Part shown: positions 6,969 to 24,339 of the stretch, one piece after another
Numbering within the stretch: the stretch's first letter is position 1
Layout: every line of letters starts with the position of its first letter
Assembly (NCBI GenBank): GCA_038213805.1
Contig: JBBQSO010000038.1
Coordinates: 1 to 49,106, forward strand
Length of the DNA: 49,106 nt
Origin: Planctomycetota bacterium
Lineage (GTDB): Bacteria > Planctomycetota > UBA11346
Reading direction: 5' to 3'
Notes under the pieces: model-generated
What the model was told of the DNA's origin: nothing
Database searches by the model: none
Seen by the model: the letters and a program-made list of their open reading frames with translations, nothing else
Program-made: the position numbers and the translations under genes

Positions 6969-8090
6969 TCAATGCGCGAAGGTGCGCACCAGGGTGTACG
7001 ATTGGCCGAGCCGCACCGGAGCGTTGCGGAGGTGCGTCGTCATGGTGCTGCGGCGGGCGCCGCGCATGGCAGGGTCGACCTGGAGCACGCCGCCGACGTA
7101 GTCGCGGTACTGCACCCATTCGTCATCGATGCGCACCATGGCGCCGGGCACCGTGGGCACGCCCTGCACGCCGGCGATCCTGATGTTGGGATTCTGGTCC
7201 TCGATCACGTAGCCGCTCGGGCCATAGCGGCCCGAGGCGAGCGTGACCGAGAAGCGCACGGCCATCGGGAAGGGATCGGGCACGAAGCCCGGCACCGTCT
7301 CGGTGCAGTAGTCGGCTCCCGCGAGAGTCGGCGCGATCTCGATGTTTGCCGTGTCCTTCAGCCAATTGTCGGTGGTCCCGGTGGGGTTCATCGGCTGGCG
7401 GCGGCTGTTGGCGTTGGAGACCCACACGCTGAAATGCAGGCAGTTGCGCGCGATGATCACCGGCTTCGCGCGCAGCAGGCAGTTCGGGAGGGGTACGGGG
7501 GCGGTGGCGCTGACGCCGGACGGATCCTGGAGGGCGAGGTAGCGGTTGACCACGTCGACATTCAGGACGGTCGGCGGGAGCGGCGGATCTCCGGGACCCG
7601 GTTCGTCGTCCTCGCTGGCGATCGGCGAGAGCGCGCGGTAGAGCTGCTCCTCGCGGTGCGGCGAGCCGTCGACCCCGTTGATGACGACGGTGGTCACCCA
7701 GTAGACCGCCAGCTTGCGGGCTTTTTCCCCTGAGATGGTGATCGCGTCCGGATCCGGATCGGTGATCAGGAAGGCAACCGCGCAATTGCCATTGGGAGGA
7801 GTCGCAGCCGGCGGCACCGTGCCGGAGAACAAGCGGCAGCAGAAGAAACCGCCCGCTTTCTCGGGCACCATGCGCTTGAGATCGTCGTCGATGATGCCCA
7901 GGGCCGAGATCGCCTCGTCGGTGGACGCGCGCCCGTATTCCCCGGCACGGAAGACATTGGTCGAGGTCAGCAGGATGGTGACCATCGCCAGCGAGACGAT
8001 GGTGAAGATCAGGATCGAGACCAGGATCTCGGCCAGGGTGAAGCCCGCGCGCGACGAGGCGCGCACCGGATGGGTCAGCAGGCGGGTCAT
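6969..8090 (-). CDS. Prepilin-type N-methyl protein, GspJ/PilW-like minor pseudopilin
   Basis: RAG|FTLAEILVSILIF class III signal; ATGA overlap with the upstream gene. Confidence 0.85.
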   Translation of the reverse strand: MTRLLTHPVRASSRAGFTLAEILVSILIFTIVSLAMVTILLTSTNVFRAGEYGRASTDEAISALGIIDDDLKRMVPEKAGGFFCCRLFSGTVPPAATPPNGNCAVAFLITDPDPDAITISGEKARKLAVYWVTTVVINGVDGSPHREEQLYRALSPIASEDDEPGPGDPPLPPTVLNVDVVNRYLALQDPSGVSATAPVPLPNCLLRAKPVIIARNCLHFSVWVSNANSRRQPMNPTGTTDNWLKDTANIEIAPTLAGADYCTETVPGFVPDPFPMAVRFSVTLASGRYGPSGYVIEDQNPNIRIAGVQGVPTVPGAMVRIDDEWVQYRDYVGGVLQVDPAMRGARRSTMTTHLRNAPVRLGQSYTLVRTFAH

Positions 8091-11000
8091 CGCGACCTCG
8101 AATTCGCCAACACGCGAACAGGAGCGAGGCAGCGCAGTCGCGCCGAGGTGATGGCCGGGCAGCGGCCGGTGGCGTCGGCGAGATCATCGAGCTTCGGCGA
8201 GGGGCCGTTCGCGTACTGCCAGGTGATGCGCATCTCGGCGCCATCCACCGGACGCGCGTCGCGCGTCGACGGCTCGGTGAAGCACATCTCGGCATCCACG
8301 ACGGGAAGGAAGATATTTCCGATCGGGAAGCCCAGCGACAGCTCGACCCCGGTCTGTTGCGACCAGTCCATCGCCGGATACCAGGGCGTGGTTGGGGTGG
8401 CGGGCACGCCTGGGCCCGACCAGATATTCTCATAGGCCAGCGCGCGCGCCTGGACGGTGAAGTAGGAATTGCCAGAGCCGTCGAGGAAGCGGTGGTTCGG
8501 ATCCTCGGTCGCTTCGGCCAGGGACATGGTGCTGTACGGCGCCGGCAGCATGGCGATCCGGGTCTGATCGAAATACGCGCCATAGAGGCTGAAGGGGAAG
8601 CCCACCCAGGCGTAGGAGCGGCTGCGGAAGTGCTCCTTGGTGAGCGCGCCGTTCGGCAGCGCACTCGGCAGGCGTGGCCACCAGCCGATCACGATCGGCT
8701 TGGGGTCCGCGGCCCCGCTCCAGCTGCCGGCGACAGGCGTGTTGTACATGCCGCGCAGCCAGGCGGCGGTGGTGTACTTGCCTTCCTGGGCCATTGGCGA
8801 TCCCACCGGATAGTCGCGGTGGAATTTCGGCCCGATCAACTGGATGACCTCGTTCTTGGCCACCACGCCGGTCGGGTCGCAGAACAGCGCCGCGGGAGCG
8901 AAGAGCGTGCGCGGCTGGATGGGCCCGACGGGGATGGCGTCCTGGAGCGCGAACCAGCTGCCTGCCGTCAGCGCCTCGGCCAGCTGCAGCACCGGCCCGA
9001 CAGGCAGGCGCTTCGCGCTCAGCAGTGGGCGGCGGATCTGGTTGTTGGCCACCAGCGGGCCGTCCGGGATGACGTGGGTGTAGACGCCGGTGTCCACCAC
9101 CAGCAGGCCGCGCCCGACCAGCTTGGCGAACAGGCCGCCGTTCTTCACCTGGTTCTGGTCGGTGGGGTTGGTGGCGTTCTCGGGCAGCAGGTTGTACTTG
9201 CCGGCGATCATCAGCGCGTCGGCATCGCTGAGCTGTTGATAGGCGAAGACCTCGCCATCGATGTCGACCAGGCCCATCTTGCCGTGAGCCCAATCGAACA
9301 GCGGGGTGGTCGCCTGGGCGAACATGCCCAGGTCGGCGGGCAGTACGTTGAGCTTCTCGGCGCCGGACGCATCGAAGAAGCGCTTGATGCCGTTGGTGAC
9401 GACATTGGTACGCGCTGGCGAGCCGGTGCTCAGCTCGTGGCCGTCGATGTTCCCCGGAGCGCCTGCGAGCGGTCCAGCGCAGATGTCGTCGATGGTCAGC
9501 GCTGTCGACACGCCAGCGCCGACGCTCGGGCGTTCGCTGTCCTGGCTGCCGAAGAAGATACGCGCCGAGCTGCCGTCGCCGAGCAGGTAGCCGTCCGCCC
9601 ACAGGTCGAGCCGCGGCAGCTGGCCGCGTGGCTCGTCGATGGCGCTGGTGACGCCGACCGGGGTCTCGCGTGGGGTCAGGTCGCCGCCGCTCCAGCAGGT
9701 GCCACAGAGCAGGTCGTACTTCGCGGCCACGATCGGCGCGGTCCAGGCGCCGCCGGTGAGCACGGGATCGAGCGGTGCCGAGAAGGCGAAGTACTCGTTC
9801 TTCGAATCGATCTGCAGCGGGTCGTTCACCGGCAGGGTCGGCTGGGGGTAGGCATCGGTCGCGGCGTAGCGGATGGCCGCCTGGAAGGGTTTCTCGGTGC
9901 CGGGCAAGACCTTCGGCAGCAGCGTGACCAGATCGCCGGTGGCGACCCAGTGGCCGTGGTTACCCAGTTCGGTCTGGACCGGCAGCACCTGGCTGCCGGC
10001 GGCGAAGATCGACAGGGGGCCGACATAGCTGCCGACCTTGGCGCCGAAGTCGGTCCGTCCGATGCCGCGCGACGAGGTGAGGGGATCGGGCTTGTAGGTG
10101 AAGCCATCGAGGTTCAGGAAGAACCCGGTGGTGGGCGCGATCCCCGCGTCGGCGCCAAGGATGAAGTGGTACTTCACCCATTCGATGCGGCCGGTGGTCT
10201 CCTGCACTTGCAGCAGGAAGGCGTTCGAGCCCACGTAGCTCTGGGTGTAGCGGCCGGCCTCGAGCGGATCGGCGCCCGTGACCGGCATGCCGACGAGTTC
10301 GATGGTCGGCTCGCCCGCATCGGTGCTGAGCACGGTGATCGCGTTGGGCGCGGCGGAGGTCGGGCTGCCGGCCGGCATCACCGGCCAGGTCTCGATGGTC
10401 TGCACTCCGGTCAGTGTGGTGCCAGAGGAGGCGGTGTAGTACCGGAACTCGGTTTGACCTTTGAATGTGATCATCACCACTCCGCCGAGTGGCGGGAAGG
10501 GCACGGGGACGTTGTGGATGGGGATGTCGTCGGTGGTATTCAGACGGCGATCGGGTCCGAAAACCGGCATCTGCGACTTGTCGACCTTGCCCCAGATCTC
10601 CCACGGGTGGGCGCTGCCGATGATCGGATCTCCGCTCGCGAAGTCCTGCTGCAGGGCGCAGCCTCCGCGGTAGATGCGCCCGGTGTCCAGGCCCAGGCGG
10701 TAGCCGCCGGGCACCACCAGCGCGCCGACCAGGTGCTGTTGGATGTTGGGATACTGCTTCAGTGGATCGGCGCCGGTGACGAAGGTGTTCTGCCGCTGCC
10801 CGCGCATGCAATCGTGCAGGTTCGAACCGATGATGGAATCGTAGCGGATGTACTCGTCGTCGATGCGTACGAAACCGCGCGCCGGCAGGAGCTGGGTCAA
10901 CGGGATGCCCATGGGGGTGGTGAGCGCGATGTCGGCGACGTAGAGCGTCATGCTCGCGTCGTTCACGGCATACGGCAGGGGAGTCTGGAGGATCGCGCTG

Positions 11001-13705
11001 GGCAGGGTGAAGTGGTCACCGAGCACGGCGGTGGATCCCACCGCGCGGTGCGCCAGCTCTTGGCCGACGACGCCGTCGAGGATGATGTCCGCGCCTTCGG
11101 CGCGGTCGCTCGCGAGCGCCACCTGCAGGTGGTACCACTGGTTCTGGCGGAAGTGCGGCTTGGTGTCTGATTTCGGCGTGCAGTAGCAGTGCAGGACGCG
11201 GTTGGCCTTGCCGAGGGACGAGAAGCCGAGGAGGTTCGGGTCCTTCGGGCACAACGGTTTCGCGTCGGTCGGGATGAAGAAGCTCGACAGCGAGCGTTCG
11301 TCGATGGTCATCGAGGTGATCGAGGTGACGTTGTCTGGCGGGTAGGTGGTGGCGCCGCCGGGGCTGTAATCGACGTCGTGTTCGGCGCTGGGCGGGGCCA
11401 ACGCCAGGATCAGCATCTCCTTGCTGTCGTCGTAATAGAGCCCGAGGTAGTTCTGGCTGTCGTCGGCGCCCGCGGCCGCCGCGACCTGCCCGAGCTGCGG
11501 GATCGCGTTCGCCACCGGTATGCGCGCTTCGCAGATCGGGATGACGCCGCCGCCGGTCCAGTCGTTCTTGGGTTTGAACCACAAGCTGAGGTGCCGAGAG
11601 GTCAGCTCGTGCGAATCGATGGCCGGGTCGACCGGACGGCGCTCGGTGAGGAAGCCGACGTTGTTCGAGGCAGGCGCGACTGGGAGCGTCTGCCCGTGCA
11701 GCCGGTAGGCGAGATCGGCGCTGAGCTGGTGGTCATAGCCGTCGGGCGTGATGTCGACGGCCGCCGCCGCGGGAGCCACCGGCTTGTACGGCGCGTCGGG
11801 CGTGGCGACGGTGGTGGTGGCGCTGAAGATGTCGGCGTCGAGGGCCATCTTCTCGCCGCCGAACGAGACGCGCCAATCGACGGCGACGTGGGTATTGCGC
11901 AGCTCCTCGACGTTGGGGGCGGTGGCGGCGAGCGCCGCGATGTCGGGCAGCACGCGCGGGCGGATGCCGGAGTCAGCGGTGATGGGTGGAGGAGGCGTGA
12001 CGCCGAGGTCGAGGTCGTCGGGAAAGATCGGCGCGCCCGCGGCGCCGAGGCGGCGCTCGTACGCCGTCGGCCAGGCCTGCATCTGGCTGGCGTAGCGCTG
12101 TGCGATCAGGGTGTGCAGATCGCCCTGGGTGATCCAGCGGCGCTCGAGCAGGTATTCCTGCGGCACCGCCTGGATCACGTCGCGGCGCAGCTCCTGCGCG
12201 GTCTGCCGGCCGAGCACGTCGGTGACGGTGGCGGCGGCTTCGATGGTGAAGATGCCCATCGAGCTGATGCCCAGCGGCGGCTGTTCGTTCGCCACGGTGA
12301 ATGCGGGGGAATTCACGGGCAGGTTCAGCGTGTAGCTGAGGCCGAAGAGGTTGCCGTAGGTCGGTGTCGCGCCGGGCACGGTGAGGAAATGTCCGAGGCT
12401 CGACGGCGGGTTGGCGCCGGCCTGCTGGCCGATGGTGCGCACCACCGAATCGTCGACCGGGGTGCCGCCATCGTCGACGGGCTTCTCGGCCGAACCGTTG
12501 TTCAGGGTCTTGCGCACCACCACCGCCAGCTGGTGGATGTTAAGCGGCGCGGGCGCCTCGATGGCGATGGCCGATCCCACCGCGGCGAACGGATTGGCGA
12601 CGCGATCAGGGACGAACAGGGATTTGCCGTGCACCACCTGTTCGGATTCGCCGGTTTCCGCGATGCCATTGACCATGCCGATGATGTGCGCCTGCGGGGG
12701 AGTCGCATATTGGGTCTCGCTCGCCACCACCGAACCTATGCCCAGCAGCGGATGCTTCGGATCCGGGACGCTGTCGAGCCAGAAGGTGTCGTGGATGGTA
12801 TCGCGCGCGACCACGGTGCCGAGATCGATGAAGCCGTCGCGGCCTTGGCGCGGGTTGTGCAGCGTCAGGTACGGGCGCATGCGCTCGAGCTCGGCGCGGG
12901 TAAGGCGGTGGCGGAACAGCGGGTGCTGCGATTGGGGATTGGCGCGCAGCAGCTGCTCGAGATCGGTGATGCGGCGGTCGGGCAGATTGAAGCGCACGCT
13001 GGCGAGATGCTGGGCGAGCTGGCCGACGGTGTCGGAGTCGTACGGGTATGGCGCTGGCACCACCTCGTTGTCATCCCAGTCGGTGATCCCGAGGGCCGCG
13101 AGGAATTTCTGCCACACCACCGGCCCCATGTCGTTGGGGTCGAGCTTGCCCGCCTCGTCGGTGACGATCGCGCCCAGGTAGGTGCGCTGCTTGGTCTCCG
13201 AAGGCAGGGGAACCGCGTTGTACGCCGTCGGCGTGAGCGGGAAGCCCTCGGGCAATAGTCCGATCGAGCCGTCTCCGTTCGGACCGGCGTCGAGCGGCAC
13301 CACCGCTGCCTTGTAGCCGGCGGGGGTATCGGGATTGATGGGCGCGGCGAATCCTGCCACCGGAGCCCACGGTGCATAAGTCTCGGCGAGGCTGGTCCAC
13401 GCCGCGGTCGGGCTTCCCGGCAGGGCCGCGCGCAGCGACGGGGTCTCGGCATAGGCGGCGATCGCGGTGGCCATGTTGGCCGCGCTGTCGCGCCCGATCT
13501 GCGCGACCTTGCTGTCGGCGAACGAGCGCGTGCCTGCGAGGCTGGAGGACTGCGTGTACAGGAAGGGCAGGCCGAGCAGCAGCAGGGCCGCGAGCAGCAC
13601 CAGGGCGAGGATCAGGGCGGCACCGGAACGTGGCATGTCTGTCCGTGGTATCCGAGGAGAGTCTGGCCGTCGAGGGGCTGGCGGATGAACGTCTGTCCGT
13701 GGCAT
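8087..13705 (-). CDS. Giant (about 1870 aa) GspK/PilX-like pseudopilin with a LamG-like domain and repeated beta modules
   Basis: RSG|AALILALVLL signal lacking E5, as in GspK/PilX; DEAGKLDPN and ITDLEQLL...ERMRPYLT GspK-like motifs; LSLWFKP...WYHLQV...ILDG LamG-like motifs. Start 13714, 13705 or 13636. Confidence 0.75.
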   Translation of the reverse strand: MPRTDVHPPAPRRPDSPRIPRTDMPRSGAALILALVLLAALLLLGLPFLYTQSSSLAGTRSFADSKVAQIGRDSAANMATAIAAYAETPSLRAALPGSPTAAWTSLAETYAPWAPVAGFAAPINPDTPAGYKAAVVPLDAGPNGDGSIGLLPEGFPLTPTAYNAVPLPSETKQRTYLGAIVTDEAGKLDPNDMGPVVWQKFLAALGITDWDDNEVVPAPYPYDSDTVGQLAQHLASVRFNLPDRRITDLEQLLRANPQSQHPLFRHRLTRAELERMRPYLTLHNPRQGRDGFIDLGTVVARDTIHDTFWLDSVPDPKHPLLGIGSVVASETQYATPPQAHIIGMVNGIAETGESEQVVHGKSLFVPDRVANPFAAVGSAIAIEAPAPLNIHQLAVVVRKTLNNGSAEKPVDDGGTPVDDSVVRTIGQQAGANPPSSLGHFLTVPGATPTYGNLFGLSYTLNLPVNSPAFTVANEQPPLGISSMGIFTIEAAATVTDVLGRQTAQELRRDVIQAVPQEYLLERRWITQGDLHTLIAQRYASQMQAWPTAYERRLGAAGAPIFPDDLDLGVTPPPPITADSGIRPRVLPDIAALAATAPNVEELRNTHVAVDWRVSFGGEKMALDADIFSATTTVATPDAPYKPVAPAAAAVDITPDGYDHQLSADLAYRLHGQTLPVAPASNNVGFLTERRPVDPAIDSHELTSRHLSLWFKPKNDWTGGGVIPICEARIPVANAIPQLGQVAAAAGADDSQNYLGLYYDDSKEMLILALAPPSAEHDVDYSPGGATTYPPDNVTSITSMTIDERSLSSFFIPTDAKPLCPKDPNLLGFSSLGKANRVLHCYCTPKSDTKPHFRQNQWYHLQVALASDRAEGADIILDGVVGQELAHRAVGSTAVLGDHFTLPSAILQTPLPYAVNDASMTLYVADIALTTPMGIPLTQLLPARGFVRIDDEYIRYDSIIGSNLHDCMRGQRQNTFVTGADPLKQYPNIQQHLVGALVVPGGYRLGLDTGRIYRGGCALQQDFASGDPIIGSAHPWEIWGKVDKSQMPVFGPDRRLNTTDDIPIHNVPVPFPPLGGVVMITFKGQTEFRYYTASSGTTLTGVQTIETWPVMPAGSPTSAAPNAITVLSTDAGEPTIELVGMPVTGADPLEAGRYTQSYVGSNAFLLQVQETTGRIEWVKYHFILGADAGIAPTTGFFLNLDGFTYKPDPLTSSRGIGRTDFGAKVGSYVGPLSIFAAGSQVLPVQTELGNHGHWVATGDLVTLLPKVLPGTEKPFQAAIRYAATDAYPQPTLPVNDPLQIDSKNEYFAFSAPLDPVLTGGAWTAPIVAAKYDLLCGTCWSGGDLTPRETPVGVTSAIDEPRGQLPRLDLWADGYLLGDGSSARIFFGSQDSERPSVGAGVSTALTIDDICAGPLAGAPGNIDGHELSTGSPARTNVVTNGIKRFFDASGAEKLNVLPADLGMFAQATTPLFDWAHGKMGLVDIDGEVFAYQQLSDADALMIAGKYNLLPENATNPTDQNQVKNGGLFAKLVGRGLLVVDTGVYTHVIPDGPLVANNQIRRPLLSAKRLPVGPVLQLAEALTAGSWFALQDAIPVGPIQPRTLFAPAALFCDPTGVVAKNEVIQLIGPKFHRDYPVGSPMAQEGKYTTAAWLRGMYNTPVAGSWSGAADPKPIVIGWWPRLPSALPNGALTKEHFRSRSYAWVGFPFSLYGAYFDQTRIAMLPAPYSTMSLAEATEDPNHRFLDGSGNSYFTVQARALAYENIWSGPGVPATPTTPWYPAMDWSQQTGVELSLGFPIGNIFLPVVDAEMCFTEPSTRDARPVDGAEMRITWQYANGPSPKLDDLADATGRCPAITSARLRCLAPVRVLANSRSR

Positions 13706-13717
13706 GGAGATCACGGA

Positions 13718-15043
13718 TCAGGGAACCGTGGTGGTCGCGCTGGTGACGACCCCATCGACGCTGAGGTTGACGGTGACCAGCTGGTCTCCGCGCGTGGCGA
13801 CGCCGCCGGACATGGCGAACTTCAGGTCGCTGGTGGCGACGGGAATGGTCGCGGGACTCTCGCCGTAGCTGCTGGCCTGCACATGGCCGTCGGGATGCAC
13901 GGTGATGCGGTAGCTCGCTTGCGGCGTCACGCCAGCCGGGAGGGTGCCGGCGCGGTCGATGGCGAGCCGGTAGAGGCGCGCGTCGTCGATGATGCCGCCC
14001 AGCTCCACTTCCTGATCGGCGACCGGCAGGAGGCTCAGGCTGGTGGGGAACTTGCCGTGGCCGAGGTGGACACTGTCGTCGGTGGCCACGGTCGCGCCCC
14101 TGAGGTAGCCGCCTTCGAAAGGCTTGGCGCCGACCAGCACGCCGTTGCGGTAGAGCTCGAGGCGCTCGCCGTCGTAGAGCATGCCGACCTCGTCCCAGCT
14201 GTCGCCATTCATGGGCGCGGCGATATCGGGACCATCGAACAGCGCGGGCGTGTCGCGGACCGTGCCGGACAGCGTCTCGACCTCGCCGCCAGCGGCCACG
14301 TCGTTGATCGAGCTCACCCACTTCTTGCCGGAGCTCTCGGAGTTCACCCAGCCGAGGATCTCCCAGCAGTCGAAGGTCGGCTCGTATGGCGCCGGCGTGG
14401 TGGGCAGCACCGGCACATGGTCGACGTGCTGGATCTTCCGGCGCAAGCCCTGCAGCACCAAGCCGCAGGTGCACTGGTCCTCGTCGTCGCTGCCGACCAG
14501 GATCAGCGGCACGATCGCCTTGTCGCTCGCCGGACCGGGTTTCACGCTGCACGAGATGTAGAAACCCTCGGTGCGGCCGCGCGCGGTGCGGCGGGCCAGG
14601 CGCTTGGAGCGGTCGAGCGGGATCGGCGCGAGCGAGGTCTTCGGCGGGCCGGTCAGACTGGTGAGGCCCTTGCCGGAACGACCGATCAGCACCGAGAACT
14701 GTGGCGGGATCGCGGTCTCCTCGAAGGTCTCGTTCCACAGCATCAGCTGGCTGACGCCGAGCACCGAGCGATCGGTCTGGCTGATCTCGATGGTCACCGG
14801 AGTGCCCGAGCTGCGTGCGGCGTGGCGGGCTTGCCGCACCACGTCGGCGACCATGTGCTCGGTGCCCACCAGGGCGTTGACACGCGGGGTGTGCAGGATC
14901 GCGCCGATCGAGATGCCCATGAAGATCATGATGATGCCGATCACCACCAGCAGCTCGATCAGCGTGAAGCCCCCGCCCAGCCGCGTGGCTGTGGATGGCG
15001 CCCTTCGCAGAGTGACCGGTCCGCTGCGCATGGGCCGGATCAC
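13718..15043 (-). CDS. Prepilin-type GspH/FimT-like protein with LamG/ConA-like domain
   Basis: GG|FTLIELLVVIGII; VRQARHAA; WDEVGMLYDGERLELYRNG and GIIDDARLY LamG motifs. GTG at 15043 overlaps the upstream stop (ATG alternative at 15031). Confidence 0.82.
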   Translation of the reverse strand: MIRPMRSGPVTLRRAPSTATRLGGGFTLIELLVVIGIIMIFMGISIGAILHTPRVNALVGTEHMVADVVRQARHAARSSGTPVTIEISQTDRSVLGVSQLMLWNETFEETAIPPQFSVLIGRSGKGLTSLTGPPKTSLAPIPLDRSKRLARRTARGRTEGFYISCSVKPGPASDKAIVPLILVGSDDEDQCTCGLVLQGLRRKIQHVDHVPVLPTTPAPYEPTFDCWEILGWVNSESSGKKWVSSINDVAAGGEVETLSGTVRDTPALFDGPDIAAPMNGDSWDEVGMLYDGERLELYRNGVLVGAKPFEGGYLRGATVATDDSVHLGHGKFPTSLSLLPVADQEVELGGIIDDARLYRLAIDRAGTLPAGVTPQASYRITVHPDGHVQASSYGESPATIPVATSDLKFAMSGGVATRGDQLVTVNLSVDGVVTSATTTVP

Positions 15044-18700: not shown

Positions 18701-19380
18701 GTGTCGAAGCGGGTGACGCCGACGGACATGGCGATGGCATTCAGCGAGTGGCGCCCGTCGAGGTAGCGCAGCACCTTGAGCATCTCGGGGTCGGTCTGCA
18801 CGTTCTTGAGATTGGCGCGGCCATCGTTGTCGACGATGTACAGGGCATCGGGGTCGGTGATGACCTCGCGGATGCGTTTCCACTCGTCCATGCGGCGCGT
18901 GGCTTCCATCACCAGCTGCGTGGTCTGCACCATCGCGTTGCCCATCGCCACCACGTCGAGTGAGGTCAACTCCTGGACTGGCGCGCCGTCGATGAAGGTG
19001 AAGTCGCCTTCTTGCCATTCGAACACCGGGCACACCAGCTCCTCGATGCACCACGCGCTCATCTCGTCGAGTTCGTAGTCCGCCACCGCTCCGGACGACA
19101 GCACCAGATCCCTCAGCGGTTGGTTCGAGGCGCGCAGCTGCTGGCTGAGTTCGTCGGCCTTCTCGGCAGCGAGCTGGCCCTTGTGCACCATGGCATCGAG
19201 CAGGTACGGACGGTTGTTCACCACGGGCGCCGAGCACATGGCGATCTGGCCCTGGTCGAAATAGATGTGCACGCTCGTCACCGGCCCGGACACCGCGAGC
19301 GTCCCGGTCTGCCGATTCATGTTCAGCGTCTGGAAGATGTCAGTCAGGTTGACAGAGCTGAGCTGGCCTTGGAAGCCCAT
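15790..19380 (-). CDS. DUF4388 (PATAN-like) + TPR + TM + PQQ/BamB-like beta-propeller protein
   Basis: GQLSSVNLTDIFQTL...TGTL...IYFDQG...FEWQEGDFTF...MEATRRMDEW; TPR helices; TM ILVYVAIVALAATAMVFGW; C-terminal WRF/LHCLDPLTGSERW propeller repeats. Confidence 0.85.
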   Translation of the reverse strand: MGFQGQLSSVNLTDIFQTLNMNRQTGTLAVSGPVTSVHIYFDQGQIAMCSAPVVNNRPYLLDAMVHKGQLAAEKADELSQQLRASNQPLRDLVLSSGAVADYELDEMSAWCIEELVCPVFEWQEGDFTFIDGAPVQELTSLDVVAMGNAMVQTTQLVMEATRRMDEWKRIREVITDPDALYIVDNDGRANLKNVQTDPEMLKVLRYLDGRHSLNAIAMSVGVTRFDTFAIVAQLVLAGVARPKTAQEVVDDAVSLMQQGDMQQAKELLDNAIRQAPIPEVMRPLAECCVKLNQAPRAVELYLELIQMAQDQGDLPNALADLDTVINLSPDDPDLHFERGQIQAELGQVEPAAASYATAAQTYLARKDLPRAIDACHRAKNLLPRSPEPHRYLARAYLLEGQTENAVVEYKSLWHALLTGERPKKALDTLRAILDADCKYNNVKDQVLGHAQNSEAIKTSKAARILVYVAIVALAATAMVFGWEYYHGHVIKQYGESKVNDFEATLTSGMQSGRHLQLLEELDDLKTKYGTNSEVSRRLEERRTQIEKDFEARAGLEFQRADAAREAGKYEEAEAIIGEMKVKYQNTQSASNADTILEAIHFERIKSQVSTKMKEAESLWNNLNWDGAIAILQTILDRKDLPASLREDYTRSMAEWSDASKSAQKLYERAQRYEQNGSKHEVLTAFRRAATGQGEQWADKARARVLSIELEMAHDLGKLAADAANRGDDQATFTQVDELATLAKEASGRTVGDYYATLELPFTLQMDSNRVQLSIKRPGAEESRVSAPAGKRGSWSERITYRVNESVTVEASRPGFSPQKFSIDVKGRKTQAVVSLSRGWRWRTDLSGASATRPIVAQKLVLLGTDKGTLEMIDPVLGANREVKFPNNIAEFTVAPFVYQDRAYAVLDDHVFAVDLNSRVRLWQWPQSLNAQDRLNGHLWVQEHEIKPGQLLVFAATIKAGLQIIEVDPTGATRAYPKLASDADITGAPFVDHPAGMSILYVPAGTSLIAYDISEITELSPPRKLYTLQSRGDLIGKLVKAKVADRDSLMVSDMSGVVMAFDCDRNVPDSKRVVAAWPIDGTSPSTPVLLPGQPVAFVSVAEGRIVAIDLAHPGQLLWRFPAQGSLGTLPGSPAIGAHGVYIADGKGLLHCLDPLTGSERWKADVGGAAVGGVLAYDGRVFVPTKAGQLVCFEEGDE

Positions 19381-19688
19381 CGGTGTATCCGAGTGTCGGT
19401 GTGAGCGGGAAAAGCGCGAGCGGCGTGCTTGGAAGGATACACCAGACTAGGCGGGAAACCCAGTAGGGTAAGCGCTTTCCAACCCCGCGAGGGCCATCGG
19501 GCGGGTGATCCACCGCGGTCGTTTCGCACGTCGGTCGCGAGCGCGGCCGTTCCGCTCATTCCAGATGTGGACGGGCGCGTTCACGCCGAGTGGCGGACCC
19601 TGGCACCGCGATGAGAAAACGTCCGGAATCGATCCTCGCTCACGTTCCCTCCGCCTCCGGCTGACGACGACGGATGACGGACGCTGAT

Positions 19689-20204
19689 TTAGAGATTGCC
19701 GAACAGCGAGTCGAGCTGGTCCTTCATCGCTTCCGAGAATCCGGCGCCCAGGGTCTGCTGCTGATCGCTCGGGGCGCGCTTCGACGCTTCGACGAGGACT
19801 CCTTCGAGCTGGGTCGAGAGCTCCTTGCACAGCACTTGGATCATTCCCGGCTTCACCTGGCTCGAGAACACGCAGACCTGGAGAGTGCGCTCGCCGAGCA
19901 GGGTGATGTGGATGCTCTGGCCCGTGCCTTGATGGAACAGGACGCGGAACTCCTTCTCTCCGAGCAGCCTGGCGACCTCGCGCGTCGAGGCGAAACTACC
20001 CGCGACGAGCGCGGCGAGAGCGCTGGAATCGTGGCTCTGGTGGAATCCCTGACGGGCCACCATGTGGCCTTCCTGGTCGATGAGCAGGGCGGATTGCGCG
20101 TTGGCCTTCTTCACGAAAGCGAGCAGGACGCCATTGATCTTGTCGATGTCGGCGGCGTAAAAGACCAGTCGCCGCAACTTCAGGGCCTCGTTTTCGCTGA
20201 CCAT
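19689..20204 (-). CDS. mglB: MglB-type roadblock/LC7 GTPase-activating protein
   Basis: LVFY..DIDKIN...ANAQSALLIDQEG...SSALAALVAGSFASTREVARLLGEKEFRVLFHQG...LDSLF closely follows Myxococcus MglB; TAATG overlap with mglA. Confidence 0.9.
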   Translation of the reverse strand: MVSENEALKLRRLVFYAADIDKINGVLLAFVKKANAQSALLIDQEGHMVARQGFHQSHDSSALAALVAGSFASTREVARLLGEKEFRVLFHQGTGQSIHITLLGERTLQVCVFSSQVKPGMIQVLCKELSTQLEGVLVEASKRAPSDQQQTLGAGFSEAMKDQLDSLFGNL

Positions 20205-21787
20205 TACGGGCTCCCCGCCGGGGTCGTGGCTGGAGGAGCCGCTGGAGGCTCGGCGACCGGCGTGTTCACGGGTGCCGGAGTCGGTGCTGGTGCTTCCTGA
20301 GCCGGGGTGGCGGCGGGGGCGGCAGCGACCGGGGGAGCAGGTGACGGCGTAGGCGCGGCGGCGGGAGCCGGAGTCGGCGGGGTGGCGGCTACCGGAGCTG
20401 CCGCGGTCGGAGCCGCGGCGATGGGAGCGGTGGCGGCCGGAGCCGCCACCGCCGGCGCGTCGGGGAGGACGGGCGCAGGGGTATGCGCCACCGGCGCTGC
20501 TGGGGTCGTTGGCGCGCTGGCCACCGGCTCGGCCGAGCTCGCCATGGGCAGGGCAGCGGAATGGGCCTGCGATTCGCCCATGAACATGCGCTGCATGTTC
20601 GGCGGCAGCTGGGCGCGTACCGCCGGGACGAACATGCACAGGATGAAGAGGATGATGATGGCGATGACCAGGAAGATCAGGACCAGCAACATGGCGCGGA
20701 CGGCTCCGCCGCCCGACTTGTTCTCTTGGTAACGGCGCAGATTGGGATCGGTCGAACCGAGATCCGGATTGGCACCGGCGGCACGCTTGTCGATAGCCGG
20801 CGGCTTGGCCTTGGCGAGATGCTTGTCCTTGGGGCTGAGGTCCTCGGGTGGGGGCACCACCGCGTTGCCTCCCGCCGGAGTCGGCGTGTAGTTCGGGCGT
20901 GGCGGCACGCCTTGCGAGCGCGGAGGCACCACGGGAACGCCGCGTTCAGAACCAGGGCGCCCTTGGATCTGCGTGGCTGGGGCGGCCGGGCGTTGGGGAA
21001 GGCGCTGCTGACCGAGCGGAGTGGTCGAGGTGCCTTGCGGGAGTTGCTGGGGTACCTGCGGGCGCTGCGCGACGCCGGTGGGCACGCCCGCCTGCATCGG
21101 CGGCAGCTTGTTGGCGCCGCTCGGGCTCTGTACCGGCACGCCCTGCGAGGGACTCTTGCCTTCGAGATTGGTGGCTGTGCGCCGGCGGGTGGACGCCGGC
21201 GCATGCTCCTTGTTGAGCTTCTCGATCACCAGGCGGCTGATCTCCTTGAGGGTGGCGAACACGCCCTTGCCCTCGCGCGCGACGCCCTCGAACACCGGAG
21301 CGTTCATCGGGTTCATCTGCGCGTTCATGTCGGGGATCGACATCGCCGTCGGCAGATCGCGCTTGTTGTATTGGAGGACCACCGGCACGTCGTCGAGGGT
21401 GAGACCCATCTCGGCGAGATTGTCGCGCAGATTCTGCAGCGATTCGAGGTTCTCCGGCATCTTCTCGGGAGACGAGTCGGCGACGAAGATCACTCCGTCC
21501 ACACCTTGGAGCACCAGTTTGCGGGTGGCGTTGTAATAGATCTGCCCAGGCACGGTGTAGAGCTGGAACTTGGTGCGCATGCCGGCGACCTGCCCGAGAT
21601 CGAGCGGAAGGAAGTCGAAGTACAGCGTGCGGTCGGTCTCGGTGGCGATCGACACCATTTCGCCGACGGCGTCTTTCGGCGCCTTCTTATGGATGATCTC
21701 GAGATTGGTCGTCTTCCCGGACATGCCTGGTCCGTAGAAGACGACTTTGCAACTCACTTCGCGTTGGCCGAAATTGATCTGAACCAT
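20204..21787 (-). CDS. mglA: MglA-family small GTPase fused to a Pro/Gln linker, TM helix and Pro/Ala-rich tail
   Basis: CKVVFYGPGMSGKTTN, TETDRTLYFDFLP, YTVPGQ, QYNKRDL in the first ~195 aa; TM AMLLVLIFLVIAIIILFILCMFV. Confidence 0.93.
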   Translation of the reverse strand: MVQINFGQREVSCKVVFYGPGMSGKTTNLEIIHKKAPKDAVGEMVSIATETDRTLYFDFLPLDLGQVAGMRTKFQLYTVPGQIYYNATRKLVLQGVDGVIFVADSSPEKMPENLESLQNLRDNLAEMGLTLDDVPVVLQYNKRDLPTAMSIPDMNAQMNPMNAPVFEGVAREGKGVFATLKEISRLVIEKLNKEHAPASTRRRTATNLEGKSPSQGVPVQSPSGANKLPPMQAGVPTGVAQRPQVPQQLPQGTSTTPLGQQRLPQRPAAPATQIQGRPGSERGVPVVPPRSQGVPPRPNYTPTPAGGNAVVPPPEDLSPKDKHLAKAKPPAIDKRAAGANPDLGSTDPNLRRYQENKSGGGAVRAMLLVLIFLVIAIIILFILCMFVPAVRAQLPPNMQRMFMGESQAHSAALPMASSAEPVASAPTTPAAPVAHTPAPVLPDAPAVAAPAATAPIAAAPTAAAPVAATPPTPAPAAAPTPSPAPPVAAAPAATPAQEAPAPTPAPVNTPVAEPPAAPPATTPAGSP

Positions 21788-21827
21788 GGGTTGTCCGATG
21801 CGTGGGGGGTCGGCGGTCCGGCGTGCG

Positions 21828-22181
21828 TCAGGTCGCCAACGTCAGGCGCTGAGTGATGCGTTCGACGAAAGGCTTGGTCTCCAGCTGGAGCAGGGCGAGA
21901 TTCGCCGACGGATCGATGACGATCGCGAGGAACGCCGGGCCGGTGGAGAGCACGACGATGCCGCCCAGCTCCGAGGCGGCGTTGAACGCGGCGAGCTTGC
22001 CGAGCTGGTAGTTGGAGCAGATCTTGTTGGTGCCCTCGAGCAGGTTGCCGATCGAGGCCGCGAGCTGGTTCTCGTCGGTGCCCTGGCGCAGGGCGGATGC
22101 CATGACCAGGCCCTCTCCGGAGACCAGCATGGTGCCGCCCACGCCGCGCACGCGATTGAGCTGTTGCAGGAGGTCGTTCAT
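21828..22181 (-). CDS. Roadblock/LC7 domain protein
   Basis: LNRVRGVGGTMLVSGEGLVMAS...LAA...ANLALLQLE; 117 aa; TGATG overlap. Confidence 0.85.
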   Translation of the reverse strand: MNDLLQQLNRVRGVGGTMLVSGEGLVMASALRQGTDENQLAASIGNLLEGTNKICSNYQLGKLAAFNAASELGGIVVLSTGPAFLAIVIDPSANLALLQLETKPFVERITQRLTLAT

Positions 22182-23041
22182 CAGGCGGCCCCGAGGTCGA
22201 TGAGGGTCTGGCGGGCGCGCAGCTCGAGCATGGCCGGACGGACCGTGACATCGGCGAGCACCACCACGCTGAATGCGCGATCGCGCTGGAAGGTGAGCAC
22301 CTGTCCGGCTCCGCCGGTCAGCGCCCAGGTCGAGAGCTTCTCGATGCCGACCACGGTCAGCGCCGCTTGGGCCGATCGGGCGACGTCCGCCGACAGCGCG
22401 GCGAGCAGCTCGTCCTGGCCGGCGGCGAGATTCTTGGTCACGACCACGCGGCCGTGCATGTCCACCACCAGGGCCCCGCGCACTCCGGGCTCTGCGCACA
22501 GCGCATCGAGTGTCGCGGTGCGCGAGCCCGTGGAGGCCTTGATCGCGGTGGTCATGGGACCCTGGAACGGCATCAGGGGTTCATTCCCGAGCGAGCTCTT
22601 GCCAGCGGCGCCAGCGGCCGCGGCTGGCGAGGGGGCGATGCCGTGGGCCTTCTCGAGTTCGGCGATCTTGGCGGTGGCGGCGGCATCGTTCGGCTTGATC
22701 GCGAGCACCTGCCTCAGGTTCGCGATCGCCTTCGGCACGTCCTTGTCGAAGACCATCATGTCCGCGAGCAGCATGTAGCCGTTGACGCTGCGCGGGTCGC
22801 GCTCGATGCCGGTCTGCAGCAGCTTCAGGGCGTCGTCGCGCTTGCCGCGAGACGACTCGATCTCGGCCAGGATGACGTAGGCCTGGCCGTTGCGAGGGAA
22901 CTCCTTCATGCAGCGGCGGCACACCTGCTCGGCCTCGTCGTTGCCACCCGCATTGCGGGCAAGCTCGGCAAGCCGGTTGTAGAGGGAGGCGGAGGGGAAA
23001 TTCTCCACCTTCTTGCGCAGGCGTTCGAGTTCTGATTCCAC
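22181..23041 (-). CDS. TPR + roadblock/LC7 fusion protein
   Basis: N-terminal TPRs (P.ASLYNRLAE...P.N..AYVILA...P.D); C-terminal PGVRGALVVDMHGRVV...LAAL roadblock domain. Confidence 0.82.
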   Translation of the reverse strand: MESELERLRKKVENFPSASLYNRLAELARNAGGNDEAEQVCRRCMKEFPRNGQAYVILAEIESSRGKRDDALKLLQTGIERDPRSVNGYMLLADMMVFDKDVPKAIANLRQVLAIKPNDAAATAKIAELEKAHGIAPSPAAAAGAAGKSSLGNEPLMPFQGPMTTAIKASTGSRTATLDALCAEPGVRGALVVDMHGRVVVTKNLAAGQDELLAALSADVARSAQAALTVVGIEKLSTWALTGGAGQVLTFQRDRAFSVVVLADVTVRPAMLELRARQTLIDLGAA

Positions 23042-24338: not shown

Positions 24339-24339
24339 T

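What the first reader, a model, noticed from the sequence alone, without database searches (positions are those of the whole stretch)
6969..23041. Candidate new system: Mgl GTPase switch linked to a lectin-tipped pseudopilus through a DUF4388 trans-envelope protein
Seen: nine co-oriented genes, several translationally coupled, in the order TPR-roadblock, roadblock, MglA-TM, MglB, DUF4388-TPR-TM-propeller, GspG-, GspH-, GspK- and GspJ-like. Known: MglA/MglB set polarity for type IV pili and gliding in Myxococcus, MglA acts in Bdellovibrio prey invasion through TPR partners, and DUF4388 often co-occurs with MglAB. Inference: a GTPase-localised type IV filament/T2SS-like adhesion, motility or predation apparatus in a non-myxobacterial, probably planctomycete, host. 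No secretin, ATPase, platform protein or peptidase is in the window, so these would be encoded elsewhere.
Basis: partly seen in the sequence, partly recalled or inferred. Interest (0 to 1): 0.85.

Follow-up and report, generated by a model that had tools for sequence, protein, structure and literature searches.

The report
GTPase-switched pseudopilus gene cluster in Planctomycetota
An uncultured group of planctomycete bacteria keeps a membrane-anchored Ras-like on/off switch, a membrane-spanning adaptor protein and four pilus-building proteins (one of them giant) side by side, which suggests a switch-controlled adhesive fibre of a kind not yet described.

Summary
Nine co-oriented minus-strand genes lie at 6969-23041:
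- a TPR-Roadblock protein and a Roadblock protein;
- a true MglA with a C-terminal membrane anchor, and MglB;
- a 1196-aa PATAN(DUF4388)-TPR-TM-beta-propeller protein;
- four pilin-like proteins: GspG-like, GspH-like with a LamG/ConA-like module, a Pfam-dark 1849-aa protein with a GspK-like head, and a GspJ-like protein.

Three junctions overlap.

The adaptor protein has full-length orthologues in 42 loci of uncultured Planctomycetota, down to 37% identity. Of 23 loci informative on both sides, 13 keep both flanking blocks, 3 only the Mgl block, 4 only the pilin block and 3 neither. The full arrangement lies on both sides of the deepest split of the adaptor tree.

In four Zixibacteria loci the same PATAN/TPR/Roadblock/MglA/MglB module sits directly upstream of pilB-pilT-pilC. 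This independently ties the module to type IV filament motors.

No motor, platform, secretin or peptidase is near the cluster in any planctomycete locus.

Binding, transcription and function remain inferred. The one complex prediction gave no verdict.

Verdict: a real, conserved cluster and a new variant of the known Mgl/PATAN-type IV filament theme. I found no description of it in print.

The parts
22181..23041 (-). Gene A: TPR repeats (residues ~12-135) plus a C-terminal Roadblock/LC7 domain (~178-285), 286 aa
   Evidence: Pfam TPR_14 5.6e-11 and Robl_LC7 7e-6. Profile of 11 orthologues hits PDB Roadblock 7yh1_D at 3.8e-6. Orthologues were found in 15 loci.
21828..22181 (-). Gene B: single-domain Roadblock/LC7 protein, 117 aa. 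Its ATG overlaps the stop of A by 1 nt (TGATG).
   Evidence: Translation, junction. Profile of 11 orthologues hits PDB Roadblock proteins, 7f8m_A at 4.2e-11. No Pfam hit for the single sequence.
20204..21787 (-). Gene C: MglA GTPase domain (1-~195), Pro/Ala/Gly/Gln-rich linker (~196-355), conserved juxtamembrane motif, one transmembrane segment, and an Ala/Pro-rich tail of 132 aa; 527 aa in all
   Evidence: PDB MglA 3t12_A at 1.6e-76. P-loop, R53, TVPGQ (T78, Q82) and NKRD are invariant in 14 orthologues. Hydrophobic segment and composition.
20600..20719 (-). Hydrophobic (transmembrane) segment of MglA, residues 357-396
   Evidence: Kyte-Doolittle scan. A similar segment is present in 15 of 15 complete planctomycete orthologues and in 114 of the 120 best long-form MglA homologues.
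19689..20204 (-). Gene D: MglB (Roadblock GAP), 171 aa. Its ATG overlaps the stop of C by 1 nt (TAATG).
   Evidence: PDB MglB 6h5b_B at 5.8e-24. Pfam Robl_LC7 3.3e-11. Junction.
19381..19688 (-). 308-nt spacer between MglB and the PATAN protein
   Evidence: Sequence. No promoter-like or terminator-like site there and no Rfam match. The same spacer is only 8-24 nt in 10 of 21 related loci.
15790..19380 (-). Gene E: PATAN/DUF4388 (4-168), TPR (~240-400), one transmembrane segment (459-484), helical region, and C-terminal PQQ-type beta-propeller (~850-1196); 1196 aa in all
   Evidence: Pfam DUF4388 1.5e-23, TPR_9 2.2e-14, PQQ_2 5.5e-20. Hydrophobic segment. 115 homologues, nearly all 1175-1276 aa with the same domains.
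15583..15789 (-). 207-nt spacer between the PATAN protein and the first pilin gene
   Evidence: Sequence. No consensus promoter or terminator. The spacer is 44-305 nt in 19 related loci, median 194.
15040..15582 (-). Gene F: GspG-like (major-type) pseudopilin, 180 aa, with class III signal G|FTLMELLVV
   Evidence: Pfam N_methyl 3.2e-6 and T2SSG 1.1e-3. NCBIfam gspG 3.5e-14, 53 bits against a cut-off of 88.85.
13718..15031 (-). Gene G: GspH-like pilin module fused to a LamG/ConA-like jelly-roll module, 437 aa, G|FTLIELLVV
   Evidence: Across 16 orthologues: N_methyl in 16, Laminin_G_3 in 6 (best 7.2e-8), GspH in 4 (best 8.3e-4). AF2 model pLDDT 71.8. Foldseek finds only low-TM jelly-roll neighbours.
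8087..13636 (-). Gene H: giant pilin-like protein, 1849 aa. N-terminal helix without Glu5 (G|AALILAL), GspK-like head (~1-500), and about 1300 further residues with no known domain.
   Evidence: Start at M27 as in P0118. No Pfam family in any of 14 members. AF2 model of residues 1-520: pLDDT 80.3, pTM 0.84. Best PDB neighbours are XcpX/GspK chains: 9a1f_T (E 3.2e-3, TM target 0.59), 6utu, 5vtm. The family has 261 representatives at E<=1e-3.
6969..8090 (-). Gene I: GspJ-like pilin, 373 aa, G|FTLAEILV. Its ATG overlaps the stop of H (ATGA).
   Evidence: Pfam N_methyl 4.5e-5. NCBIfam gspJ 2e-5 over residues 15-77, below its cut-off. Junction. Orthologues in 8 further loci.
23193..24338 (+). Possible accessory: divergently transcribed lipid-kinase-like gene (DAGK_cat plus DAGK_acc)
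   Evidence: Pfam. A homologue on the opposite strand lies upstream of gene A in 13 of the 15 loci that hold gene A. Its role is unknown.

Best explanation
This is a lineage-specific, conserved gene cluster of uncultured Planctomycetota. It couples a Ras-like GTPase switch to the building blocks of a type IV filament (T2SS-like pseudopilus or pilus).

Proposed mechanism:
1. MglA is tethered to the cytoplasmic membrane by a C-terminal helix on a ~160-residue flexible linker and cycles between GDP and GTP. The MglB dimer is its GAP, as in Thermus and Myxococcus. The TPR-Roadblock protein A and the Roadblock protein B form a second Roadblock pair that acts as co-regulator or scaffold.
2. MglA-GTP docks on the strongly conserved cytoplasmic PATAN-TPR half of protein E. 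The PATAN domain in turn contacts a PilB/GspE-type assembly ATPase encoded elsewhere, as PATAN regulators do in Synechocystis.
3. The periplasmic helical and beta-propeller half of E positions or primes the pilin tip complex.
4. The GspK-like giant H (cap), the GspJ-like I and the GspH-like, LamG-bearing G prime polymerisation of the GspG-like subunit F. The result is a fibre with a very large, probably ligand-binding tip, assembled only where and when the switch is on.

Shown: gene content, homologies, membrane anchors, conserved linkage, and the cross-phylum link of the module to pilB-pilT-pilC.

Inferred: every binding step, the direction of control, co-transcription, whether the fibre is periplasmic or surface-exposed, and its ligand.
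For: Identity of the parts: see the parts list.

Catalytic residues of MglA are invariant in 14 orthologues.

Linkage:
- E orthologues were found in 42 loci, one genome per species.
- 23 of 34 loci informative upstream have the Mgl block.
- 20 of 29 loci with at least 2 kb downstream, or with a detected F, have the pilin block.
- Of the 23 two-sided loci, 13 have both blocks.
- The 'both' state lies on both sides of the midpoint root of the E tree (33 rows).
- E stays with either block when the cluster is split: 3 loci keep Mgl plus E and 4 keep E plus pilins. This is what one expects of a hub.

Spacing: the MglB-E spacer is 8-24 nt in 10 of 21 loci.

Conservation: about 70% of E's invariant columns lie in the cytoplasmic 39% of the protein.

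Independent support:
- In 4 of 4 Zixibacteria loci the order is DUF4388, TPR, Roadblock, Roadblock, long MglA, MglB, PilB, PilT, PilC, PilS. Pfam was run on L054; the ATPase motif is present in all four.
- One Actinomycetota-labelled locus (L077) has Roadblock, DUF4388, a GTPase-like protein, PilB and PilT.

Literature:
- PATAN equals DUF4388; PATAN regulators bind PilB1; PATAN is sometimes fused to GspE_N; mglAB often neighbours PATAN genes (passages of 10.1101/2021.06.11.447907).
- MglA groups 1 and 5 are occasionally near PATAN genes (passages of PMC4316618).
- Modular pilins, including a ConA-like lectin pilin, are probably tip-exposed (passages of PMC8179133).
Against: - The blocks are separable. 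10 of 23 two-sided loci lack one or both blocks next to E, and unrelated housekeeping genes sit in their place.
- The E-F spacer is long (207 nt here, median 194), so the pilin genes may have their own promoter.
- No T4F motor, platform, secretin or peptidase lies within about 10 kb in any of the 42 planctomycete loci. Only an ATPase Walker-A motif and a peptidase motif were scanned there; Pfam was run on the window's flanks and on parts of 9 loci.
- The five Gemmatimonadota loci have the Mgl/PATAN module without any T4F gene, so the module is not always tied to filaments.
- A GspI-like subunit is missing.
- All pseudopilin hits are below the curated family cut-offs.
- The GspK-like fold match is modest (E 3.2e-3, TM on the query 0.36).
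Confidence: 0.5

Rival explanations
1. Neighbours by descent, not partners. The Mgl/Roadblock/PATAN genes form a polarity or envelope-signalling module with some other output (for example cell division or budding, or another machine). The four pilin genes are just the minor-pilin set of the cell's general T2SS or type IV pilus, and they happen to lie downstream.
For: - The blocks are separated in 10 of 23 two-sided loci.
- The E-F spacers are long.
- The Gemmatimonadota module lacks T4F genes.
- The 2014 survey found variable neighbourhoods for MglA groups 1, 4 and 5 (passages of PMC4316618).
Against: - The arrangement persists from 68% down to 37% adaptor identity and on both sides of the deepest split.
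- E stays with the pilins when the Mgl block is absent (L004, L013, L021, L034).
- The same module abuts pilB-pilT-pilC in another phylum.
Confidence: 0.2
2. The cluster is switch-controlled, but the output is secretion rather than an adhesive or motility fibre. F-I would form a short periplasmic T2SS-type pseudopilus (piston) that pushes cargo through a secretin. E would play the part of the GspL/M/C-type link between ATPase and periplasm.
For: - The pilin set looks like T2SS (G, H, K, J types) rather than like type IVa pilins.
- The best structural neighbour of the head of H is a T2SS pseudopilin.
Against: - A 1849-aa cap protein and a LamG-bearing subunit are hard to fit into a periplasmic piston. 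Modular pilins are thought to present ligand-binding modules on filaments (passages of PMC8179133).
- There is no GspI, and no neighbouring gspC/D/E/F/L/M.
Confidence: 0.15
3. Not a filament at all. The pilin-like proteins are membrane-anchored periplasmic or surface proteins that are never polymerised. E with MglA would form a transmembrane sensing complex in which the propeller and the LamG module detect an envelope or polysaccharide cue.
For: - No assembly machinery is nearby.
- No solved relative was found for most of H.
- Many pilin-like paralogues in this superphylum have no known function (recalled, not tested).
Against: - Three proteins keep the canonical G|FTLxE processing and assembly motif across species. 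This motif is only needed for prepilin-peptidase processing and filament packing.
- A major-type subunit F is always present with G.
Confidence: 0.1

Closest known systems
Myxococcus xanthus polarity module (MglA, MglB, MglC, RomR/RomX, RomY) acting on type IVa pili through the TPR protein SgmX, and on gliding through the bitopic protein GltJ
   Same: A true MglA with its Roadblock GAP MglB, further Roadblock proteins, TPR effectors, and a membrane protein whose cytoplasmic domain could receive MglA-GTP. The output is a type IV filament. Sources: abstracts in the listings; PDB matches.
   Different: - MglA here is membrane-anchored, so it cannot shuttle through the cytoplasm.
- No RomR or RomX gene is in the cluster.
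- The putative effector is a PATAN-TPR-TM-propeller fusion.
- The neighbouring genes are T2SS-like pseudopilins, not pilB or pilT.
Cyanobacterial PATAN-REC response regulators (PixG, PixE, LsiR and others) that bind the pilus extension ATPase PilB1
   Same: The PATAN (DUF4388) domain and a link to the type IV pilus motor (passages of 10.1101/2021.06.11.447907).
   Different: There is no receiver domain. PATAN is fused to TPR, a membrane span and a periplasmic propeller. Control would come from a GTPase rather than from phosphorylation.
Zixibacteria cluster found here (L050, L054, L056, L061): DUF4388, TPR, Roadblock, Roadblock, long MglA, MglB, PilB, PilT, PilC, PilS
   Same: The same module in the same order: TPR/Roadblock, Roadblock, MglA (51-61% identity over the GTPase domain), MglB, plus a DUF4388 protein.
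   Different: - It is linked to motor genes rather than pilin genes.
- The DUF4388 protein is a separate 399-aa protein in which Pfam sees only DUF4388.
- MglA is long but has no hydrophobic segment.
Type II secretion pseudopilus GspG-H-I-J-K (Xcp of Pseudomonas aeruginosa)
   Same: - A major G-type subunit.
- An H-type subunit.
- A cap-type subunit without Glu5 whose head resembles XcpX.
- A J-type N-terminus.
- Class III signal peptides.

   Different: - No GspI.
- The K-like protein is about six times longer than the 295-residue XcpX-like chain 9a1f_T, the best structural match.
- The H-like protein carries a LamG module.
- None reaches a curated family cut-off.
- The genes do not sit in a gsp operon.
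Modular type IV pilins (for example Streptococcus sanguinis PilC with a ConA-like lectin module and PilB with a vWA module)
   Same: A pilin module with a grafted ligand-binding module, as in G and probably H (passages of PMC8179133).
   Different: These are diderm, T2SS-like subunits. H has a far larger extension with no known domain.
NCBIfam 'Verru_Chthon cassette' pilin-like proteins (TIGR02596 protein D)
   Same: G and F give weak hits to cassette protein D (9.2e-6 and 9.5e-4). As I recall, the cassette is a four-gene set of pilin-like proteins with one very large member in Verrucomicrobia. That description is recalled and was not seen in any call.
   Different: The scores are far below the cut-off (25.9 against 70 bits). 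H matches no NCBIfam model. No paper on the cassette was found.

Membership tests
MglA family of Ras-like GTPases | Sequence match to solved MglA over the whole G domain | tested here: met
   3t12_A at E 1.6e-76 over residues 2-190; M. xanthus MglA 6h17_A at 1.2e-71.
MglA family of Ras-like GTPases | Thr in place of Asp in the G3 motif (TVPGQ), intrinsic Arg53, catalytic Gln82 | tested here: met
   R53, T78 and Q82 are invariant in 14 orthologues. The Thr78 peculiarity is stated in the abstract of PMC3000849 (listing).
MglA family of Ras-like GTPases | Single-domain soluble protein of about 195 aa | tested here: not met
   The protein is 527 aa with a linker, one hydrophobic segment and a tail, conserved in 15 of 15 complete orthologues.
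MglB (Roadblock GAP) | Roadblock fold, match to solved MglB, and a gene coupled to mglA | tested here: met
   6h5b_B at 5.8e-24. Its start overlaps the stop of mglA. GAP activity was not tested.
PATAN / DUF4388 domain proteins | Pfam PF14332 above the gathering score | tested here: met
   83.5 bits against a cut-off of 25, covering the whole profile, residues 4-168.
PatA-type response regulators | PATAN followed by a receiver domain | tested here: not met
   No Response_reg hit in E.
T2SS pseudopilin set GspGHIJK | Class III signal peptide (G|F-T-L-x-E) in the G, H and J types; cap subunit without Glu5 | tested here: met
   F, G and I carry G|FTL(M/I/A)E, and H has G|AALILAL.
T2SS pseudopilin set GspGHIJK | Each subunit reaches the curated equivalog score | tested here: not met
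   gspG 53 against 88.85 bits; gspH 21.2 against 80; gspJ 24.5 against 64.85; H has no hit.
T2SS pseudopilin set GspGHIJK | A GspI subunit is present | tested here: not met
   There are only four pilin-type N-termini in the cluster, and no room for a further gene between F and I.
T2SS pseudopilin set GspGHIJK | Encoded with gspD/E/F/O | tested here: not met
   None among the 24 flanking ORFs. No T2SSE Walker-A or peptidase motif in the window or the 42 planctomycete loci. The rest of the genome could not be read.
GspK (T2SS cap pseudopilin) | Pilin fold with an inserted alpha-domain; Pfam T2SSK | tested here: inconclusive
   Pfam gives 0 hits in 14 of 14 members, and the profile search against PDB sequences finds nothing. 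The AF2 model of residues 1-520 has XcpX chains as its best PDB neighbours: 9a1f_T (E 3.2e-3, probability 1.00, TM target 0.59), 6utu, 5vtm.
LamG / ConA-like lectin superfamily (module of G) | Pfam Laminin_G_3 and a jelly-roll fold | tested here: inconclusive
   The window protein scores E 7.1e-4, 20.2 bits against a cut-off of 27.6. Six of 16 orthologues match, best 7.2e-8. The Foldseek top hits are proteins with a lectin-like jelly roll, but TM is only 0.2-0.3. Sugar binding is not testable here.
Type IVa minor-pilin/PilY1 priming complex | A non-pilin PilY1 with a C-terminal propeller, plus four minor pilins | tested here: not met
   Pfam found no PilY1-type domain or any other family in H, and only the families listed in F, G and I. 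The large protein itself has a pilin-type N-terminus.

The most novel reading that the evidence does not exclude
The cluster is the regulatory and fibre-forming core of an undescribed class of type IV filament machine, restricted to an uncultured planctomycete lineage. In it, a membrane-tethered Ras-like GTPase and a PATAN transmembrane adaptor replace the usual alignment and polarity components. They gate assembly of a fibre capped by a 200-kDa GspK-like protein and carrying a lectin-like subunit. This might be the kind of fibre that planctomycetes are thought to use to catch and pull in polysaccharides. That last link is recalled from the literature on crateriform structures and was not examined here.
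Probability: 0.12. Interest if true: 0.85.

Novelty: new variant of a known kind. Interest (0 to 1): 0.6.

Why it matters
MglA/MglB is the best-studied bacterial small-GTPase polarity switch, but almost all mechanism comes from Myxococcus, where MglA is soluble and oscillates between the poles.

Here the same GTPase, with fully conserved catalytic residues, is permanently membrane-anchored. The anchored form is common in metagenomes: 114 of the 120 best long homologues have the hydrophobic segment. It is genetically tied to a PATAN protein that spans the membrane and to pilin genes.

If the coupling is real, three things follow:
- It would show how a Ras-like switch can gate a type IV filament directly at the membrane.
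- It would give the PATAN domain a role outside cyanobacteria.
- It would assign a first function to a Pfam-dark family of giant pilin-like proteins (261 representatives) in a phylum whose surface fibres are poorly understood.

The Zixibacteria arrangement, with the module next to pilB-pilT-pilC, makes the idea testable in more than one phylum.

Tried and rejected
- Complex prediction of MglA(1-200) with E(1-460), GTP and Mg gave no verdict (score 0.00, controls not run). It counts neither for nor against binding.
- Profile-profile comparison of H with G found only the shared N-terminal helix. So a LamG module in H, hinted at by Atlas rows at 0.90 and 0.77 with Laminin_G_3 on 19% of members, is not supported.
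- H against I gave only a weak shared motif (E 3.1e-3, probability 10%).
- A profile of H against PDB sequences found nothing meaningful. The same holds for I.
- B against MglB by hhalign was weak (probability 4.5%). B was settled by the PDB profile search instead.
- The word-based homologue search for H found only 4 proteins. The exhaustive search was needed.
- Promoter and terminator scan: 0 promoter-like sites, and terminator-like sites at the level of the shuffles, with none in the two spacers.
- Rfam: only two chance-level rows.
- The response regulator downstream (5074-5694) was considered as a tenth member and rejected. It has no counterpart in other loci, and in L010 and L015 the gene after I is a TerC homologue.
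- Cluster-member names for H relatives could not be fetched because the database was switched off.
- No paper was found on the 'Verru_Chthon cassette'.
- Literature searches that found no description of this cluster: DUF4388 plus MglA; Planctomycetes plus MglA; Planctomycetes plus pseudopilin plus type II secretion; DUF4388 alone; MglA plus pseudopilin; MglA plus transmembrane helix and related terms.
- The supplementary table of PMC4316618 has 57 PATAN entries and no planctomycete (one of its four files was not searchable).

Full report
**Observation**

The window is 65-72% G+C. Between 6969 and 23041 the minus strand carries nine consecutive genes. Seven long frames have third-position G+C of 0.80-0.89. 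The other two, B and D, are shorter genes in frames that my filter did not list, and I placed them by translation.

- A: TPR plus Roadblock.
- B: Roadblock, seen only with a profile of 11 orthologues (7f8m_A, 4.2e-11).
- C: MglA.
- D: MglB.
- E: DUF4388, TPR, PQQ-type propeller.
- F: GspG-like.
- G: pilin N-terminus plus a weak Laminin_G_3 hit.
- H: a giant protein with no family.
- I: GspJ-like N-terminus.

They hold no consensus promoter, terminator or Rfam element.

Kyte-Doolittle scans give exactly one hydrophobic segment in C (residues 357-396) and one in E (459-484). F, G, H and I each have one at the extreme N-terminus.

The database version of H starts at M27, giving 1849 aa.

The 24 other ORFs of the window that I scanned encode housekeeping or unrelated proteins. 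They include no secretin, secretion ATPase, platform protein or prepilin peptidase.

**The GTPase module**

C matches solved MglA proteins over the whole G domain (Thermus 3t12_A 1.6e-76, Myxococcus 6h17_A 1.2e-71). In an alignment of 14 orthologues the P-loop, Arg53, the MglA-specific TVPGQ motif (Thr78, Gln82) and NKRD are invariant. The enzyme is therefore very probably active.

What is unusual is the rest of the protein:
- a 160-residue Pro/Ala/Gly/Gln-rich linker;
- a conserved juxtamembrane motif;
- one membrane helix;
- an Ala/Pro-rich tail of 132 residues, which should be periplasmic.

A hydrophobic segment after the G domain is present in 15 of 15 complete planctomycete orthologues; five partial ones were left out. 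It is also present in 114 of the 120 best long-form homologues, all 120 of which carry TVPGQ.

It is absent from the four long Zixibacteria MglAs and from the five Gemmatimonadota MglAs of 199-216 aa.

The 2014 survey of prokaryotic Ras-like GTPases names no Planctomycetes among the MglA lineages in the passages I read. Its searchable supplementary files have 57 PATAN entries and no planctomycete (one file was not searchable).

**The adaptor E**

E has 115 homologues in the word-indexed protein collection, nearly all 1175-1276 aa with the same Pfam set. The few that carry names are labelled Planctomycetes or Planctomycetota.

In an 18-sequence alignment roughly 70% of the invariant columns fall in the first 463 residues, that is PATAN, a helical region and TPR. 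The basic residues before the hydrophobic segment, and the PQQ-type propeller after it, fit an N-in, C-out bitopic protein. This topology is inferred from the sequence and was not predicted by a dedicated tool.

'Trans-envelope' is therefore too strong. What is shown is one span with about 710 residues beyond it.

**Conservation of the linkage**

A pattern scan of one genome per species returned 77 loci. Forty-two encode a full or cut orthologue of E at 37-84% identity. All of them are metagenome-assembled genomes labelled Planctomycetota or sub-groups, apart from two labelled only 'bacterium'. One (L001) is the window's own contig.

I located the other eight genes with tblastn and with HMMs built from the orthologues found in the same loci.

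- Upstream: 34 loci have at least 560 nt of sequence before E, and 23 of them have the Mgl block.
- Downstream: 20 loci have the pilin block, and 9 with at least 2.3 kb of sequence do not. L011, with only 725 nt, is left open.
- Of the 23 loci informative on both sides:
  - 13 have both blocks (L001, 2, 7, 9, 10, 17, 23, 25, 27, 30, 31, 35, 39);
  - 3 have only Mgl (L019, L020, L040);
  - 4 have only pilins (L004, L013, L021, L034);
  - 3 have neither (L005, L033, L036).

In the split loci the neighbours are unrelated genes: ABC transporter, UvrA, glycogen phosphorylase, aminotransferase and so on. The separations are therefore real rearrangements and not missed homologues.

I built a FastTree of 33 E sequences, leaving out nine loci in which E is cut. 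It places the 'both' state on both sides of the midpoint root: L025, L027 and L030 on one side, and L001, L002, L031, L035 and others on the other. The split states concentrate in one 16-row clade. The nine-gene arrangement is thus most simply ancestral to the family and has been broken several times. The root is not inferred, and FastTree support is only local.

The MglB-E spacer is 8-24 nt in 10 of 21 loci (median 55). The E-F spacer is 44-305 nt (median 194, n=19). Mgl and E therefore look co-transcribed in many relatives, whereas the pilin genes may have their own promoter.

The cluster ends at I. In L010 and L015 the next gene is a TerC homologue, and the response regulator at 5074-5694 has no counterpart elsewhere.

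**Independent evidence from other phyla**

The scan also returned distant DUF4388 proteins.

In four of four Zixibacteria loci the order is DUF4388 protein, a small ORF, a TPR protein, a Roadblock protein, a second Roadblock protein, long MglA, MglB. This is followed at once by PilB (T2SSE plus MshEN), PilT, PilC (T2SSF) and a PilS-like protein. Pfam was run on L054; the HMM hits and ATPase motifs are present in all four.

One Actinomycetota-labelled locus (L077) has Roadblock, DUF4388, a GTPase-like protein, PilB and PilT.

Five Gemmatimonadota loci have the module (TPR, Roadblock, MglB, MglA, a PATAN-TPR protein) with a double DnaA-like ATPase and no filament gene.

So the module of two Roadblock proteins, MglA, MglB and a PATAN protein is old and crosses phyla. 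In some lineages it is physically tied to type IV filament motors, and in this planctomycete lineage it is tied to pilins.

This fits the published statements that:
- PATAN regulators bind PilB1;
- PATAN is sometimes fused to the GspE N-terminal domain;
- mglAB often neighbours PATAN genes.

These come from passages of 10.1101/2021.06.11.447907 and of PMC4316618.

**The pilin block**

F, G and I keep the canonical G|FTLxE prepilin motif in the window and in relatives.

- F resembles GspG along its length. This includes the C-terminal part read by eye, but by score the match covers only the N-terminal 66 residues.
- G is a GspH-like pilin module (GspH Pfam in 4 of 16 orthologues) with a LamG/ConA-like module (6 of 16, best 7.2e-8; the window's own copy 7.1e-4, below the cut-off).
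  - Its AF2 model (pLDDT 71.8) is a long N-terminal helix followed by beta-sandwiches.
  - The Foldseek neighbours are proteins with a lectin-like jelly roll, at TM only 0.2-0.3 and 6-10% identity. That supports the fold class and nothing more.
- H has a pilin-type helix without Glu5.
  - It has conserved motifs (IEDExGKLDPN, LTRAELERLRPYLT) that resemble GspK motifs as I recall them.
  - It has no Pfam family in any of 14 members.
  - The AF2 model of residues 1-520, from 68 sequences, is confident (pLDDT 80.3, pTM 0.84).
  - Its best PDB neighbours are the GspK orthologue XcpX in three entries: 9a1f_T (E 3.2e-3, TM on target 0.59), 6utu and 5vtm.
  - An exhaustive HMM search with the head found 261 representatives (101 at 1e-30 or better). 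The full-length ones are mostly 1600-2000 aa, and no ordinary GspK-sized relatives appear among the best 150.
  - The remaining 1300 residues are unexplained.
- I is GspJ-like only at its N-terminus.
- A GspI-type subunit is missing.

Modular pilins with lectin or other binding modules, and GspK as a modular cap, are described in PMC8179133 (passages).

**Interpretation**

The best-supported reading is a GTPase-gated type IV filament system. E is the hub between a membrane-tethered MglA/MglB/Roadblock switch, an assembly ATPase encoded elsewhere, and a tip complex of H, I and G that primes F.

Shown: the parts, their conservation and their linkage. Inferred: all contacts.

My one complex prediction returned no verdict. 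I could not read the rest of any genome, so the motor remains unidentified. Whether the fibre is a periplasmic pseudopilus or an external pilus, and what it binds, is open.

The main rival is that the blocks are merely syntenic. It draws on the 10 split loci, the long E-F spacer and the Gemmatimonadota loci.

**Novelty**

The general theme, MglAB plus PATAN near type IV pilus functions, is in print as a hint. Lectin-bearing modular pilins are also known.

In six literature searches I found no description of any of the following:
- a membrane-anchored MglA;
- a PATAN-TPR-TM-propeller protein;
- the giant GspK-like family;
- their conserved nine-gene arrangement in Planctomycetota;
- the Zixibacteria module-pilBTC arrangement.

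The library lacks most subscription journals, so this is absence from what was searched. I rate it a new variant of a known kind, with moderate to high interest.

**Left unchecked**

- Cluster-member names could not be fetched.
- Supplements of bioRxiv preprints were not available.
- One supplementary file of PMC4316618 could not be searched.

Noticed in passing
window 23193-24338 (+): A lipid-kinase-like gene with both DAGK_cat and the DAGK accessory domain, which as I recall is otherwise mostly eukaryotic, lies divergently 151 nt upstream of gene A. A homologue in the same position and orientation is present in 13 of the 15 loci that hold gene A. It may belong to the system.
   Followed up: partly
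window 24301-27789 and 27534-31121 (+): Two large Ser/Thr protein kinase genes, one with TPR, follow the lipid kinase. In M. xanthus the mglBA operon is divergent from masABK, whose kinase MasK and membrane partners interact with each other, and MasA/MasB interact with PilA (passages of PMC3546991). Kinase homologues are near E in only a few other loci (L006, L019, L020).
   Followed up: partly
window 31140-33509 (-): One 789-aa ORF carries a dephospho-CoA kinase (CoaE) domain at residues 84-255 followed by complete Rho termination factor domains at 373-727. This is either a CoaE-Rho fusion or two genes read through in one frame.
   Followed up: no
window 20720-20860 (-), MglA residues ~310-356: A conserved motif just before the membrane helix of MglA (consensus DKHLAKAKPP...DLGATDPNLKRYQ), set in an otherwise poorly conserved linker. 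H323, L324, K326, P329, T346, P348, L350 and Y353 are invariant in 14 orthologues. It may be a docking site.
   Followed up: no
window 7000-7150 (I, residues ~313-360) and H residues ~915-950 and ~1451-1470: H (twice or more) and I share a short motif of the form hVRIxDE(W/Y)IxY ... RGxRxT ... H. The hhalign support is weak (E 3.1e-3, probability 10%; consensus lines).
   Followed up: partly
window 5856-6833 (+): A 325-aa ORF with third-position G+C of 0.78, between the cluster and the response regulator, has no Pfam or NCBIfam family.
   Followed up: no
L013, L019, L020, L025, L027: Records whose titles name Candidatus Kuenenia or Brocadiaceae. L013 and L019 have 73% and 69% G+C, far above what I recall for Kuenenia (about 41%, recalled). 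Their E proteins nest among unclassified Planctomycetota. The taxonomic labels look unreliable.
   Followed up: no
L043, L045, L047, L048, L053 (Gemmatimonadota-labelled): The Mgl module here is TPR, Roadblock, MglB, MglA, then a 650-aa protein with two DnaA-type AAA domains, then a PATAN-TPR protein of 539 aa. This is a different and unexplained partner for the same module. Pfam was run on L043 only.
   Followed up: partly
L044 316-5837: A second, distant planctomycete version has an E-like protein (22% identity) followed by a TPR protein, a Roadblock protein and MglA (65% identity), so E precedes the Mgl genes here. The contig is too short to see whether pilin genes follow.
   Followed up: no
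L005 1066-2523: A phage-integrase-family gene lies just upstream of E in a locus that has lost both flanking blocks. This may be a trace of the rearrangement.
   Followed up: no
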